Positions 57,065-62,117 of a stretch of DNA of 64,000 bases are shown here, piece after piece; the stretch's first letter is position 1; the number at the start of each line of letters is the position of its first letter. Position numbers and translations under genes: made by a program. Below the pieces are notes generated by a model, which saw only the letters and a list, made by a program, of their open reading frames with translations, was not told the origin of the DNA and did no database searches. The DNA is from a virus. The DNA is taken from positions 27,483-91,482 of the IMG/VR virus record IMGVR_UViG_3300050821_004371. One strand, 5' to 3'.

Positions 57065-57560
57065 ACGGGCTATTCTGTTGCTAGGAAGCCCGAACAACCC
57101 CAGCAGCTTTTTAGGCCGCAGCAGCCATAGCAAGAGGCTTGGCGTTTAGCATTTCTGTGTCCGTAACGTGGCCACAGCATCCGTGCCCATCCATGCTATC
57201 TCGTCCGCGCAATCGAATCCATTTCAGGCCCGTCACGTCGCCCGTTACCAATTTGCAAATATTGGCAGCCAAACCCGAAGTCAAGTTTTCCGACCGACTT
57301 AACGGGCGATCTGGTGGACCTGCGGGCTTCGAAGCCCGGTCTTGCACGTCTTAACAGCACTTCAACTGAGCAAACTTTAATTGGGAGTAGGCGTGTGCCG
57401 ACGCCTCGTTCTTAAGTCCCCACTCCTGCGTCGTTTCGCGACCTTGGCTTTCTTCAGTCGCTTCCGAAGAAGCGGGTTTTCCCCAGCGGCAACCTGTGGA
57501 GACCTCCCAAACTTTAGGGCAGCAGGTTTGCCGCCTCCACCAGTTCGTTTTCCCCGAACA
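57065..57560 (-). ncRNA. ssrA: circularly permuted (two-piece) tmRNA; acceptor piece ends CCA at 57312, coding piece starts at 57231
   Basis: GACCGGGCTTCGAAGCCCGCAGGTCCACCA precedes GGGCCTGAAATGGATTCGA; acceptor stem with G3.U70; tag ORF (A)AKPLAMAAAA* stop 57113-57111; outer ends approximate. Confidence 0.85.
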
Positions 57561-57753: not shown

Positions 57754-58392
57754 TCATGCAAGGGACGAAAAGATCGTTATTTCTTTGGCCGTATTCTCGA
57801 TGTCCTGAGCGCGATCTTCAATCTCCTCGGGCGTTGCGGGTCGTCCGAAAGCTCGGGCAATTGTAATGGCTAGCCAACTTCGAAGCGGATACTTAGACTT
57901 GCTGGCTTGGCAGGACATTTGGCTGCCGTCTCCGCAGCAAGGCACCAAATTGTACGGGATATGTCCGAGCGCCGAATCAACTCGATCCAGACCCCAAACT
58001 TTGCCTTTGGGCGGTTTGGCTCCGCAGTAAACGCATGGCCGAGGCTCGCCTTTATCCAAGAAATACGGAACAGCTTCTACTGGACTCTTGAATCCGAATT
58101 CGCGATTATTGATCTTGTCGGTCCAAATCATGCTATTGTACCGCTTCCGAAGGCATTTGTAATAGCCGTTGGAAGCTAGTCGGGCGGCATGAATATCGCC
58201 CATAGCAATTCTTTTGGGTTTGGGCAAGAGTCCGGATTCCCGCCAGTCCTTGGCCCACAATTCTATGGTTTCCGGGGTCTGCCCGGTACGAACCGATATT
58301 TCATTGCGGCTACGATTTGCCCGCAAGAACTCTAGAACTTTATCTTGGCACTCTCGCTCGGAACTGAACGATAACTGTTTGAATTTTCCCAC
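57754..58392 (-). CDS. HTH plus HNH-like endonuclease
   Basis: N-terminal HTH-like; PCVYCG...GLDRVDSALGHIPYNLVPCC..CQASK. Confidence 0.7.
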   Translation of the reverse strand: MGKFKQLSFSSERECQDKVLEFLRANRSRNEISVRTGQTPETIELWAKDWRESGLLPKPKRIAMGDIHAARLASNGYYKCLRKRYNSMIWTDKINNREFGFKSPVEAVPYFLDKGEPRPCVYCGAKPPKGKVWGLDRVDSALGHIPYNLVPCCGDGSQMSCQASKSKYPLRSWLAITIARAFGRPATPEEIEDRAQDIENTAKEITIFSSLA

Positions 58393-58532: not shown

Positions 58533-60923
58533 TTAGCTGATGGCGCTGGCAGCATCGATTTCCCGGATACGAATGGTCGTATCGGGGCCGAGGCTGGTGG
58601 TGAAATGGACCCTATCAATGTGTTAACTGTACGTTCGTTTTCCGTACAGATCGGACTGTCGCATCGCCCGTAGGCGTTTCCTCGCTCAGTCTCTACTGCT
58701 GCCCGCTTTCGCTGCTTGCAGTCTGTTGGCTTCTCAGCTTCCAGCTTAATCAGAGGAAATTCGCATCATACTCTTTGTACGATGCCCCTAGTTTGTTAAG
58801 GAGGTCCATCCCGGAATCAGCATTATTGTTACTACCCTTTTGGGCGGGCAAGTCGTTTCCGCTTGCCTCTGCAAATTCATTTCCTTGCAGATCGGACTGT
58901 CGCATACACTCGAAAGTGTTCTTCTCGCTCAGTCTCTACTGGTGCTTTCGCTTCCAGTCTGTTCCCATCGCAGGGTTCAGCTTAATCAGAGAAGATTTAA
59001 CGAGGGCCTAAAACCGACCGCTCGGGTCTGCCACGCTAGGCTCCAAATTTCTGGGAGCAGACCAAAGAACGCCGAGCCTTATCGGTAGCGTTCTGGACGA
59101 TATTGCAGCGAATATTCCGCCACTCGCCATCGCCGTACCCAGTGTCACCCTGCGCTCCGAGGTTGATGGAGAAAATTCCATCGCGCCCGAAGATATACGT
59201 ACGCAGAGCAGTCAAGCCCGTAACCGCGCCAGTTCCCGGATTGTAATTCGGGCTGGTAGTTACCAAGTTAGACTGGAAGAAGCTTACGCCGGAAGTCGGG
59301 ATTTCAATGACTTCGGTCAAGTCCGTCGAGATGATTTCATCCAGGCGGCTGTAACCCTGCGGAGTACGCTTCAGGATATCGATTGGCGAATCGTTCGAGT
59401 TGTCTGCAAGCACGTCACCCAACGCAAAAGGATGGATAACGCCCGCAAAGTTCTTCGAAGCTTCGTCAAACGGGCGAACCGAACGTCCGGCAAGTGACTG
59501 CACGGCGTTTCGGATGTAGGTCAGGGAGAGAGTCGTGAAGCTCGTGGTCGAGGTCGCGGCCAGTTTGGTCAGGACCGAAGAATCCACGGAGTTCGCGCCG
59601 TCCGCAGTTGCACGAACCAAAGCGGACAGAGACTCGCCGAGACGGTAGGCCATCTCTCGGGCGACGTTTTCGACAGTGTTGTCGATTGCGGTCGCGAGGG
59701 ACAGCGAGGAGAAGTTAGCGTAATCAGCGTCAACTGTGTTTTGGGAATGCTGTTTTTAGGCAGTCATTACGGGCGTCGCCGTCTCCTGTGTCACCACAGG
59801 GCCACTCTTACTGTCACCAGTAAGTTCGGACTCTATCTTCAGTTCGTTTTCCGAACTGCTTGACGTATTAGTCTCTACGTCTACTCCCCGTTTATTCAAG
59901 ATCGACAACTGTTTCCACAACTCTTCCCGACGTTCGGGATTCATTGTCGGCGGAAGCCGTAGAAATTCTAGGAAGACAATTGCACGCTCTTTTTTGATTA
60001 TCAGATAAGGCATGATTGCCAAAATAAGAAGTTCCATGTCCTTCTTTTTCGACAACCGCCAAATAGACGGAATTTTGCATCTCGGGTTATTCGGGCGTTG
60101 CGTAAAAGTTACGCCCCCGAAGTTTTCCTTCAGCCACGCAGTCAATCTATGGTCCGTATTGCCAACCAATATCTGCGGATTGTAGTTGATGACGCCCCAC
60201 TTCTGGCGTCGTCCAGCTCCGATGCAAAAACAGCCCTCGCCATCAATAATTCCAGCGAGGTACGAATATTTTGATTTGTCTGACATTCTAGCCATCCTTT
60301 TGGATTATTTAATAGGCTTGTAAAACGGTTAGTCTTGGCTCGGTATTGTCTGCCATTATAGCAGATGTCCACCGATATAGTCAAGTTTATGGTGAGCCGC
60401 AAATCAACTCACCGATTGTCGCCGAGGTATTCAGTACAGATACGCTCACGCCCGCGCCAACAGTTCCTTCAGTCGTCTGACTGGTGTTGGCCGCGAGGGG
60501 AACATACATCCATTTTGTTGCGGCGGGCAAGTATAACTGCCAACCTCTTACGGTCGCCCGTAAGTGCGGACTATATCATCACCCGTTTCCGGGGCGCGGC
60601 GTGTAGTCTCTACGGGGTCACTTAGACTTCCCTCGGGATTGACTCAATGAGTTATCCCCCGATATAGCCACGTTATTCAACATCGCTTACGCGATGAGGG
60701 TACCTGTTTGATACAAGTTGTACTGGTTACCAGATTTCATCGGGAGGTCCAAACGTTCGGAACACGCGACGAACGGCGTCTGTGCCTTCAGGTTCTCCTG
60801 TTTCTTGGCACACGAGCTTCGACCCTATTCCGCAAGAACCATTTAACGGAACTTTTTGTCGTAGTACCGAACCGTGGACTGAGGCAGGTTTGACTGGTTA
60901 TTAGAACTCGGGCTATAGCCCAT
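58533..60923 (-). CDS. major capsid protein (N4-gp56-like family), 7 exons: 60923-60846, 60797-60711, 60509-60407, 59730-59087, 59043-59017, 58820-58799, 58615-58533; 347 aa
   Basis: Joined exons (1044 nt) read without stops: MGYSPSSN...YYDKKFR|ENLKAQ...PMKSGNQYNLY|MYVPL...TIGEY|ADYANFSS..TAIDN...IHPF..D...NIVQNA|EPSVADPSG|LIPGWTSY|RVHF...IREIDAASAIS; downstream of a scaffold-like gene. Confidence 0.85.
58616..58798 (-). ncRNA. MCP intron 6: group I intron (183 nt)
   Basis: same core blocks as intron 5; P1 UCCU|UA..UAGGGG; terminal G. Confidence 0.85.
58821..59016 (-). ncRNA. MCP intron 5: group I intron (196 nt)
   Basis: core CAGTAGAGACTGAGCGAG ... ATGCGACAGTCCGATCTG; P1 CGAGCGGU/GCCCUCG; terminal G. 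Confidence 0.85.
59044..59086 (-). other. MCP intron 4: 43-nt core-less group I-like mini-intron
   Basis: exon AGAACGCU pairs intron GGCGUUCU (8 bp, U.G); AGGCUC pairs 3' exon GAGCCU; ends in G; frameshifts if retained. Confidence 0.8.
59756..60295 (-). CDS. LAGLIDADG homing endonuclease (intron-encoded)
   Basis: YSYLAGIIDGEGCF...WLKENFGG...PYLIIKKERA. Confidence 0.9.
   Translation of the reverse strand: MARMSDKSKYSYLAGIIDGEGCFCIGAGRRQKWGVINYNPQILVGNTDHRLTAWLKENFGGVTFTQRPNNPRCKIPSIWRLSKKKDMELLILAIMPYLIIKKERAIVFLEFLRLPPTMNPERREELWKQLSILNKRGVDVETNTSSSSENELKIESELTGDSKSGPVVTQETATPVMTA
60355..60384 (-). promoter_or_regulatory. intron-internal sigma70 promoter for the LAGLIDADG ORF
   Basis: TTGACT-18nt-TATAAT. 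Confidence 0.55.
60510..60710 (-). ncRNA. MCP intron 2: group I intron (201 nt; 5' boundary uncertain by a few nt)
   Basis: core CCGTAGAGACTACACG ... GATGATATAGTCCG; U-ending exon, terminal G. Confidence 0.85.
60798..60845 (-). other. MCP intron 1: 48-nt core-less group I-like mini-intron
   Basis: exon UUCCGU pairs intron GCGGAA (U.G at junction); GGUUCUU pairs 3' exon GAGAACC; ends in G; in-frame TAA and TAG. Confidence 0.75.
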
Positions 60924-61718: not shown

Positions 61719-62117
61719 CTATTCTCCACTGATGACTTCCCAATCTTTATCGGGCGACGAATTGATCGCCTCGCGATACGGGCGTGCCTGCTGAATGCAC
61801 CCGTCAGACGACGGATTGTACGGATCGTTCGGGTCTGTCCCGATTTGCCAGCCATGAATTTTGAAACCGTCGCGATTGTACATCTGGTTACTCGGATCGG
61901 GAGTCAACGGGATTGTTACAGGCCCCGTCTTCTGGCTATCGTATGCCGCGCCCGCCGTGTACTTTCCTACGGGCAATGATCCGATGTCCTTAACGGCCTG
62001 AGTCGCGGGATTGTTGCGCCCTTGAACTCCGCCCCGAACATTATGCCCGGACCAACCCGTAGAAAAGAATTCTCCGTTATGGAATACTTTCCCGGCTTTG
62101 ATGTTAAACGTCCACAT
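61719..62117 (-). CDS. Tlde1/DUF2778 L,D-transpeptidase-fold peptidoglycan enzyme
   Basis: GWSG...NNP..Q.VKDIGSLPVGKY...LTPDP....RDGFKIHG......SDGCI. Confidence 0.75.
   Translation of the reverse strand: MWTFNIKAGKVFHNGEFFSTGWSGHNVRGGVQGRNNPATQAVKDIGSLPVGKYTAGAAYDSQKTGPVTIPLTPDPSNQMYNRDGFKIHGWQIGTDPNDPYNPSSDGCIQQARPYREAINSSPDKDWEVISGE

What the first reader, a model, noticed from the sequence alone, without database searches (positions are those of the whole stretch)
59044..60845. Two 43-48 nt core-less group I mini-introns in the capsid gene
Seen: intron 1 (60845-60798, TAAATGGTTCTTGCGGAATAGGGTCGAAGCTCGTGTGCCAAGAAACAG) and intron 4 (59086-59044, ACCGATAAGGCTCGGCGTTCTTTGGTCTGCTCCCAGAAATTTG). 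Each follows an exon ending in U and ends in G. Each has an internal guide that forms P1 with the U.G pair (6 and 8 bp) and an adjacent P10 with the 3' exon (7 and 6 bp). Neither has room for the P3-P9 core. Retention gives in-frame stops (intron 1) or a frameshift (intron 4). Exact removal restores YYDKKFR|ENLK and QNA|EPSVADP. Established: group I catalysis needs the P3-P7 core, which can act on P1 substrates supplied in trans in vitro. Inference: these are non-autonomous satellite introns spliced by the core of a neighbouring full intron (87 and 27 nt downstream) or by excised ribozymes in trans. I know of no described natural equivalent in phage.
Basis: partly seen in the sequence, partly recalled or inferred. 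Interest (0 to 1): 0.92.

Follow-up and report, generated by a model that had tools for sequence, protein, structure and literature searches.

The report
Core-less mini-introns in phage capsid gene
Two 43- and 48-base inserts that break this soil phage's only capsid gene carry the splice-site pairings of a self-splicing group I intron but no catalytic part, and comparison with related phages suggests they are spliced out by borrowing the ribozyme of a full intron just downstream, which I found in no paper I searched.

Summary
The single major capsid gene (N4-gp56 family) of a complete 91-kb Acidobacteria-type phage is cut by six inserts. Four are full group I introns of 201, 676, 196 and 183 nt. 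Two are minis of 48 and 43 nt. Removing all six exactly gives an intact 347-aa protein, 97-99% identical to uninterrupted homologs.

Each mini follows a U and ends in G. Each has one continuous guide that pairs with the 5' exon end (P1, with a U.G pair at the splice site) and, directly next to it, with the 3' exon start (P10). Neither has a core.

The minis are not relics. Six other phage contigs carry different minis (39-52 nt) at the same two sites and at a third. Their guides are conserved, their tails are unrelated, and P10 shows compensatory changes. Every mini has a full intron 15-101 nt downstream.

The tail of mini 4 forms an 8-bp helix with exon 5 that abuts the P1 of the next intron. 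The matching helix co-varies in relatives. No such link was found for mini 1.

Splicing itself is not shown, because no RNA data could be reached. The closest natural precedent is the 56-81-nt degenerate group I introns of fungal rDNA. This scan has already noted the same class in at least 8 other phage genomes.

The parts
60846..60923 (-). Capsid exon 1 (26 codons). Its last 7 nt form the 5' strand of mini 1's P1.
60798..60845 (-). Mini-intron 1, 48 nt: lead 60845-60841 (starts with an in-frame UAA), P10 guide 60840-60834, P1 guide 60833-60827, unstructured tail 60826-60799, terminal G 60798.
   Evidence: identical copy in L086
60711..60797 (-). Exon 2 (87 nt). Its first 7 nt pair with mini 1's P10 guide.
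60510..60710 (-). Intron 2, a full group I intron of 201 nt and the candidate helper for mini 1.
   Evidence: Rfam RF00028 51.4 bits, above the gathering score; model R1 35 bits
60407..60509 (-). Exon 3
59731..60406 (-). Intron 3, a 676-nt group I intron carrying a LAGLIDADG endonuclease ORF (60295-59756).
   Evidence: Rfam 33.6 bits; Pfam PF00961; phrog_5046
59087..59730 (-). Exon 4 (644 nt). Its last 8 nt form the 5' strand of mini 4's P1.
59044..59086 (-). Mini-intron 4, 43 nt: lead 59086-59080, P10 guide 59079-59074, P1 guide 59073-59066, 2-nt linker, tether strand 59063-59056, remaining tail, terminal G 59044.
59017..59043 (-). Exon 5, a 27-nt micro-exon: P10 strand 59043-59038, tether strand 59032-59025, 5' strand of intron 5's P1 59024-59017.
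58821..59016 (-). Intron 5, a full 196-nt group I intron with no P2, and the candidate helper for mini 4. Its guide lies at intron nt 9-16.
   Evidence: fold and covarying alignment; model R1 108 bits; missed by Rfam
58799..58820 (-). Exon 6 (22 nt)
58616..58798 (-). Intron 6, a full 183-nt group I intron of the same type as intron 5.
58533..58615 (-). Exon 7 with the stop codon

Best explanation
The two inserts are non-autonomous derivatives of group I introns. Each keeps only the substrate side of a group I intron. That means a guide that forms P1 with the end of the upstream exon (U.G at the cleavage site), a directly adjoining guide segment that forms P10 with the start of the downstream exon, and a terminal G. 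Neither has any of the P3-P9 core.

Inferred: the two transesterifications are carried out by the core of a complete group I intron in the same transcript. The most likely helper is the next one downstream: intron 5 for mini 4 and intron 2 for mini 1. Excised intron RNAs acting in trans are the alternative.

For mini 4 the anatomy suggests how this works. Two nt after its P1 guide, the tail pairs over 8 bp with exon 5. That helix ends exactly where intron 5's own P1 begins. The mini's P1 and the helper's P1 therefore hang from the same junction, and either could dock into the one core.

Shown: the anatomy, conservation of the guide, covariation of P10 and of the tether in relatives, the constant presence of a downstream full intron, and an intact capsid frame only after exact removal. 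Not shown: that splicing happens, and which RNA catalyses it.
For: (1) Exact removal restores a 347-aa capsid protein that matches uninterrupted homologs. This is the only capsid gene in a complete genome with terminal repeats.
(2) P1+P10 is a continuous 12-19-bp guide in the eight minis tested from seven records. Shuffles reach it 0-47 times in 20,000. A ninth mini (L098) has P1 and P10 in the same register.
(3) All nine follow U, place a G opposite it, and end in G.
(4) P10 shows compensatory changes: at site 4, position 2 A-U to C-G and position 3 G-C to A-U; at site 1, position 7 C-G to U-A. The G.U pairs work only on the mRNA strand.
(5) Guides are 67-93% identical between variants. Tails are 41-65% identical, close to what I would expect of unrelated sequence; no control was run.
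(6) No core is present: tails are nearly unstructured and neither Rfam nor model R1 matches the minis.
(7) All nine minis have a full intron 15-101 nt downstream, in six different mini/helper combinations. Most have none upstream.
(8) A tether helix lies next to the helper's P1 in window mini 4 (8 bp, no gap; it is also the minimum-energy fold), in L090 (9 bp, 1 of 5000 shuffles), L096 (10 bp, 11 of 5000), L097 (6 bp) and L088 (8 bp). Read from the sequences, it changes on both strands together among L090, L096 and L097.
(9) The helpers are real ribozyme-type RNAs: 27 of 36 pairs co-vary across 10 introns.
(10) The only four cores in the genome are in this gene.
Against: There is no RNA or protein evidence of splicing.

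Mini 1 has no significant pairing with intron 2 or with the exon next to intron 2's P1.

Intron 2's own canonical P1 is only 4 bp.

Full introns are very common in this gene family, so some nearness to one is expected by chance. My rough estimate is about 0.3 per case.

Several tether helices are individually weak: 199 of 5000 shuffles match the window's, and 467 and 581 of 5000 match those of L088 and L097.

The same-site variants probably share ancestry, so the number of independent cases is small.

As far as I know, no natural case has been demonstrated of a full group I intron splicing a second P1 that is not its own.
Confidence: 0.58

Rival explanations
1. Autonomous minimal ribozymes. 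The minis splice themselves with help from folded flanking exon RNA, as claimed for the 67-nt PaSSU intron of Phialophora rDNA, without using another intron's core.
For: PMC3160393 reports 56-81-nt fungal introns with P1, P7, P10 and a helix between the intron middle and the 3' exon. PaSSU splices in vitro only when long exon context is present. The phage minis also have P1, P10 and, for mini 4, an intron/3'-exon helix.
Against: The phage minis are shorter (39-52 nt). Their tails have no conserved helix that could serve as a P7-like G site. A complete intron always lies just downstream, which an autonomous element would not need.
Confidence: 0.1
2. Protein-dependent excision. The guide acts only as a splint that lines up the two exon ends, while a nuclease and an RNA ligase (from phage or host) cut and reseal.
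For: P1 and P10 abut without a gap, so the exon ends would sit as in a nicked duplex.
Against: The invariant U.G at the 5' site and the invariant terminal G are the hallmarks of group I chemistry, and a splint has no need for them. I found no RNA ligase or splicing nuclease next to the gene, but only a few ORFs there were scanned against family libraries. The tether to the helper's P1 would go unexplained.
Confidence: 0.07
3. Dead relics. The minis are deletion remnants of full introns that inactivate the capsid gene in defective or misassembled genomes.
For: Weak 9-10-nt matches of some site-1 tails to the P4/P5 region of full introns hint at an origin by internal deletion.
Against: This is the only capsid gene in a complete genome. 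Minis occur in eight records from different samples. Their exons stay intact, their guides are conserved and P10 changes are compensated. Mini 1 is identical in two assemblies. No full-length intron with the same guide was found at sites 1 or 4.
Confidence: 0.05
4. Translational bypassing, as in T4 gene 60. Ribosomes hop over the 43-48-nt gaps.
For: The gap size is similar to the 50 nt of gene 60. Seven of the eight minis inspected have an in-frame stop within the first three codons (read from the sequences). A hairpin sits at the take-off site.
Against: No landing codon matches the take-off codon at any of the three sites. At the third site a hop would delete a conserved Tyr. Bypassing does not explain the covarying P10, the U.G pair or the terminal G. 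Early in-frame stops are also found in the full introns here.
Confidence: 0.03

Closest known systems
Small 'degenerate' group I introns of fungal nuclear SSU rDNA (Phialophora PaSSU 67 nt; Arthonia, Porpidia; 56-81 nt), PMC3160393
   Same: Tiny introns that keep P1 and P10 and lack most of the core. [quoted passage not shown] They also depend on RNA outside the intron.
   Different: The fungal ones sit in rRNA, are longer, are said to keep a P7, and PaSSU ends in U. The phage minis are 39-52 nt with no P7. They sit in an essential protein-coding gene, end in G, and always have a complete group I intron 15-101 nt downstream.
Canonical phage group I introns (Rfam RF00028; T4 td/nrdB/sunY and Twort orf142 with three introns, both recalled from memory; introns 2, 3, 5 and 6 of this gene)
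   Same: U.G pair at the 5' splice site, an internal guide that forms P1 and P10, a terminal G, an early in-frame stop, and a location in a conserved phage gene.
   Different: No P3-P9 core, so no G-binding site. About a quarter of the size of the smallest full introns in this gene (183-201 nt).
Engineered trans reactions of group I ribozymes: trans excision-splicing (PMC2532722) and 'spliceozymes' (PMC4094466)
   Same: A ribozyme core removes an internal segment from another RNA and joins the flanks. The segment ends in G and is defined by P1 and P10.
   Different: Those are laboratory constructs in which the ribozyme supplies the guide. Here the excised segment carries its own guide, and the arrangement is natural and conserved.
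T4 gene 60 translational bypass (from memory)
   Same: A gap of about 50 nt containing stops in an essential phage gene, with a hairpin at its start.
   Different: No matched take-off and landing codons. Pairing with both exons co-varies, which indicates removal at the RNA level.

Membership tests
Group I intron (canonical, self-splicing) | 5' exon ends in U, paired with G of an internal guide (P1) | tested here: met
   P1 of 7 and 8 bp with U.G in both window minis. The same holds in seven further minis.
Group I intron (canonical, self-splicing) | P10 between the guide and the 3' exon; terminal G | tested here: met
   P10 of 7 and 6 bp abuts P1. All nine minis end in G. P10 shows compensatory changes.
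Group I intron (canonical, self-splicing) | Catalytic core P3-P9 with the P3/P7 pseudoknot and a G-binding site | tested here: not met
   The inserts are 43 and 48 nt. Tails fold at only -0.1 to -3.4 kcal/mol. Rfam and model R1 give no match on the minis, while the four full introns of the gene do match R1.
Fungal degenerate small group I introns (PaSSU type) | P1, P10 and a helix between the intron middle and the 3' exon (PM) | tested here: met
   Met for mini 4: an 8-bp tail/exon 5 helix, which is also the minimum-energy fold. For mini 1 there are only 6 bp with exon 2 nt 12-17, which I did not test against chance on their own; tail/exon 2 pairing as a whole was not significant.
Fungal degenerate small group I introns (PaSSU type) | Residual P7 | tested here: not met
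   The tails have no conserved internal helix.
Fungal degenerate small group I introns (PaSSU type) | Shared descent / location in rDNA | tested here: not met
   These sit in a phage capsid gene. The sequences are unrelated apart from the guides, which are specific to each site.
Programmed translational bypass (T4 gene 60 type) | Matched take-off and landing codons flanking the gap | tested here: not met
   The take-off codons are CGU, GCU and UAU. No matching codon lies before the resumed frame (sequences).
Programmed translational bypass (T4 gene 60 type) | Nascent-peptide signal and ribosome hop | not testable with these tools
   This needs translation assays.
Helper-dependent ('satellite') intron, proposed here | A complete ribozyme is available in the same transcript | tested here: met
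   All nine minis have a full intron 15-101 nt downstream. The four cores in the genome are all in this gene.
Helper-dependent ('satellite') intron, proposed here | Excision requires the helper core | not testable with these tools
   This needs in vitro splicing with and without the helper, or RNA-seq.

The most novel reading that the evidence does not exclude
A natural division of labour among group I introns. Core-less 'satellite' introns of about 40-50 nt persist and diversify in phage capsid genes. They present their own P1/P10 substrate helices to the catalytic core of a neighbouring full intron. A tether helix anchors the satellite's P1 at the base of the helper's P1, so one ribozyme splices two introns. 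This would be a group I counterpart of substrate introns served by a separate catalytic RNA.
Probability: 0.5. Interest if true: 0.92.

Novelty: new variant of a known kind. Interest (0 to 1): 0.85.

Why it matters
Group I introns are textbook self-splicing RNAs: each carries its own catalyst. An intron that keeps only the substrate helices, yet survives in an essential gene, would show that ribozyme cores can serve other introns in nature. Until now that has been seen only in engineered systems.

It would give a living model of how introns might come to depend on a separate catalytic RNA. It would also push the lower size limit of group I-type introns to about 40 nt.

There is a practical side too. 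Gene callers miss these inserts, so capsid genes of many soil phages are annotated as fragments.

The claim is directly testable with a transcript of a few hundred nucleotides.

Tried and rejected
- Full-length introns with the same guide at sites 1 or 4: gapped pattern scans of viral contigs found only minis plus three chance hits, L091-L093.
- Metagenome scan: it only re-found the contigs of L086 and L089.
- Genome-contig scan: 35 hits, none encoding the capsid protein.
- Tail pairing searched across the whole gene: helices of 8-10 bp are expected by chance, so mini 1's 10-bp match inside exon 4 was dropped.
- Tail against the first 35 nt of the helper: not significant, including the 5 bp between mini 1 and intron 2.
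- Origin by deletion: only 9-10-nt matches of tails to full introns, E about 0.5.
- A home-made mini-intron finder run over the whole genome: 60 hits against about 10 in the null sequences, too noisy to use. The strongest extra hit (57556-57504, minus strand) lies in non-coding sequence beside the tmRNA gene.
- Rfam on introns 5 and 6: nothing, even at E up to 10.
- Translational bypass, relics and protein-dependent splicing were considered and ranked low; see the rival explanations.
After that I worked from coordinates only.

Full report
**What the locus is**

The window is part of a 91,482-bp virus record with direct terminal repeats, rated 100% complete. Its closest isolate is Tunturiibacter (Acidobacteriota) phage Tunturi_3, whose major head protein is 82% identical.

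On the minus strand between 60923 and 58533 lies the genome's only major capsid gene, of the N4-gp56 family. Hundreds of uninterrupted homologs of 343-348 aa exist. The large exon is up to 99% identical to them.

tblastn and a junction search place seven exons and six inserts of 48, 201, 676, 43, 196 and 183 nt. Every insert follows a T and ends in G. The joined exons give 1044 nt, a 347-aa protein and a stop.

**The observation**

Mini 1 starts with an in-frame UAA. Mini 4 shifts the frame.

In each, one uninterrupted guide pairs with the last 7 or 8 nt of the upstream exon, with a G opposite the final U. Immediately 5' of that, the same guide pairs with the first 7 or 6 nt of the downstream exon. 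Only 2 and 3 of 20,000 shuffles of the insert reach this pairing.

Several of these pairs are G.U, which work only in the mRNA sense. This argues against a DNA-level inverted duplication.

Mini 1 is base-for-base identical in an independent assembly, L086.

**The full introns are real ribozyme-type RNAs**

- Intron 2 passes Rfam's gathering score for group I introns.
- Intron 3 matches more weakly and carries a LAGLIDADG endonuclease gene.
- Rfam misses introns 5 and 6. Their folds nevertheless show P4-P6, P7, P8 and P9, with the P3/P7 pseudoknot topology readable from the sequence.
- In an alignment with eight related introns from other phages, 27 of 36 pairs have compensatory changes.
- A covariance model built from that family finds four cores in the whole genome, all in this gene.
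- The model finds nothing in the minis. Their tails are essentially unstructured.

**Relatives**

Gapped DNA patterns that require the flanking codons found further minis in IMG/VR contigs.

- Site 1 (KKFR/ENLK): L086 (identical 48 nt), L087 and L089 (46 nt), L088 (43 nt), L098 (51 nt).
- Site 4 (QNA/EPS): L090 (39 nt), L096 (51 nt), L097 (52 nt).
- A third site (VKY/YDK): a 42-nt mini in L097.

All follow U, put a G opposite it, have P10 abutting P1, and end in G.

Between variants at one site, the guides are 67-93% identical. The tails are 41-65% identical after global alignment, close to what I would expect of unrelated sequence, though I ran no control.

P10 changes together with silent changes in the exon:
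- Site 4, position 2: A-U becomes C-G.
- Site 4, position 3: G-C becomes A-U.
- Site 1, position 7: C-G becomes U-A.

No full-length intron with these guides was found at sites 1 or 4. The minis are therefore a stable, selected form and not sporadic wrecks. An essential single-copy gene could not carry them in eight records from different samples unless they are removed.

**Link to a helper**

Every mini has a full intron 15, 27, 81, 81, 81, 83, 87, 87 or 101 nt downstream. There are six different mini/helper combinations. Most minis have no intron upstream at all. With three to five full introns per 1-kb gene, I estimate the chance of this at about 0.3 per case. This is a rough calculation of mine, not a tool result.

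- In window mini 4, the tail begins an 8-bp helix with exon 5 nt 12-19, two nt after the P1 guide. Intron 5's P1 uses exon 5 nt 20-27.
- The minimum-energy fold of 58996-59100 is exactly this: mini P1, a 2-nt linker, the tether, then the helper's P1 with no gap.
- In L090, L096 and L097 there is no intron at that position, and the helper sits 81 nt downstream. There the tails pair with exon nt 63-72, again directly before the helper's P1. The helices are 9, 10 and 6 bp, matched by 1, 11 and 581 of 5000 shuffles.
- Between these three, the exon and the tail change together at three positions (sequences).
- L088's site-1 mini does the same, with 8 bp and no gap.

So the same guide family has tails adapted to wherever the helper lies. 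This is hard to explain unless mini and helper work together. Geometrically, the mini's P1 and the helper's P1 hang from one junction at the base of the helper's P1, so either could dock into the single core. That last step is inference.

For mini 1 I found no comparable link. The candidates were:
- 5 bp with intron 2 nt 10-14;
- 6 bp with exon 2 nt 12-17;
- a 10-bp match inside exon 4.

The first and third are within chance. The second I did not test on its own, and tail/exon 2 pairing as a whole was not significant. Mini 1 may be served without a tether or in trans.

**Alternatives**

- Ribosome hopping fails for lack of matched codons, and it cannot explain the covarying P10.
- Relics fail on conservation and on the gene being essential.
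- A nuclease/ligase route cannot be excluded, but it has no use for the U.G pair or the terminal G.
- Autonomous catalysis is the most serious rival, because Harris and Rogers report that a 67-nt fungal intron with P1, P7, P10 and an intron/3'-exon helix splices in vitro when long exon context is present (PMC3160393). The phage minis are shorter, lack any P7-like helix, and always have a full intron at hand.

**Known and new**

Engineered ribozymes can excise a segment from another RNA (PMC2532722, PMC4094466). My full-text searches found no natural phage case.

Other agents of this scan have described the same class in at least eight other phage genomes. I treat those notes as leads, not as evidence.

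I rate the finding a new variant of a known kind. The chemistry is most likely that of group I introns, but an intron without a core, living off a neighbour's ribozyme, has not been described.

**Limits**

- There are no RNA or protein data.
- Few cases are independent.
- Some tether helices are individually weak.
- Mini 1 lacks a demonstrated link to any helper.

Noticed in passing
window 57111-57372 (-), perhaps extending to about 57560: A phage-encoded permuted tmRNA (Rfam RF04321, 68.5 bits). My mini-intron scan also flagged 57556-57504 for an 18-bp three-strand complementarity in non-coding sequence just upstream of it on that strand.
   Followed up: partly
window 57754-58392 (-): A free-standing 212-aa ORF just downstream of the capsid gene, with a weak HTH match and an endonuclease VII-like match (phrog_1035, E 8e-6). 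It may be a free-standing homing endonuclease beside an intron-rich gene.
   Followed up: no
window 58616-59016 (-): Introns 5 and 6 (196 and 183 nt) are very small complete group I introns. Rfam RF00028 misses them even at E up to 10, yet they belong to a family with strong covariation. Standard annotation will overlook this family.
   Followed up: partly
window 61719-62117 (-): A 132-aa protein with a Tlde1 domain (PF10908, E 1e-8), encoded upstream of the capsid gene.
   Followed up: no
L097:3205-3246 (-): A third mini-intron site (VKY/YDK): a 42-nt insert with a 5-bp P10 and a 7-bp P1 right at its 5' end. The same gene also carries a site-4 mini and three full introns.
   Followed up: partly
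L087:4726-5784 (+): A 46-nt mini, then a 15-nt micro-exon, then a 998-nt intron. This is the shortest mini-to-helper spacing seen.
   Followed up: partly
   Followed up: no
window 60407-60923 compared with L086:4797-5313: Exons 1-3 are 100% identical between this genome and L086, while exon 4 is only 94% identical; mini 1 is also identical. L086 also has a different set of downstream introns. This is a mosaic that suggests recent exchange of the 5' intron block.
   Followed up: partly
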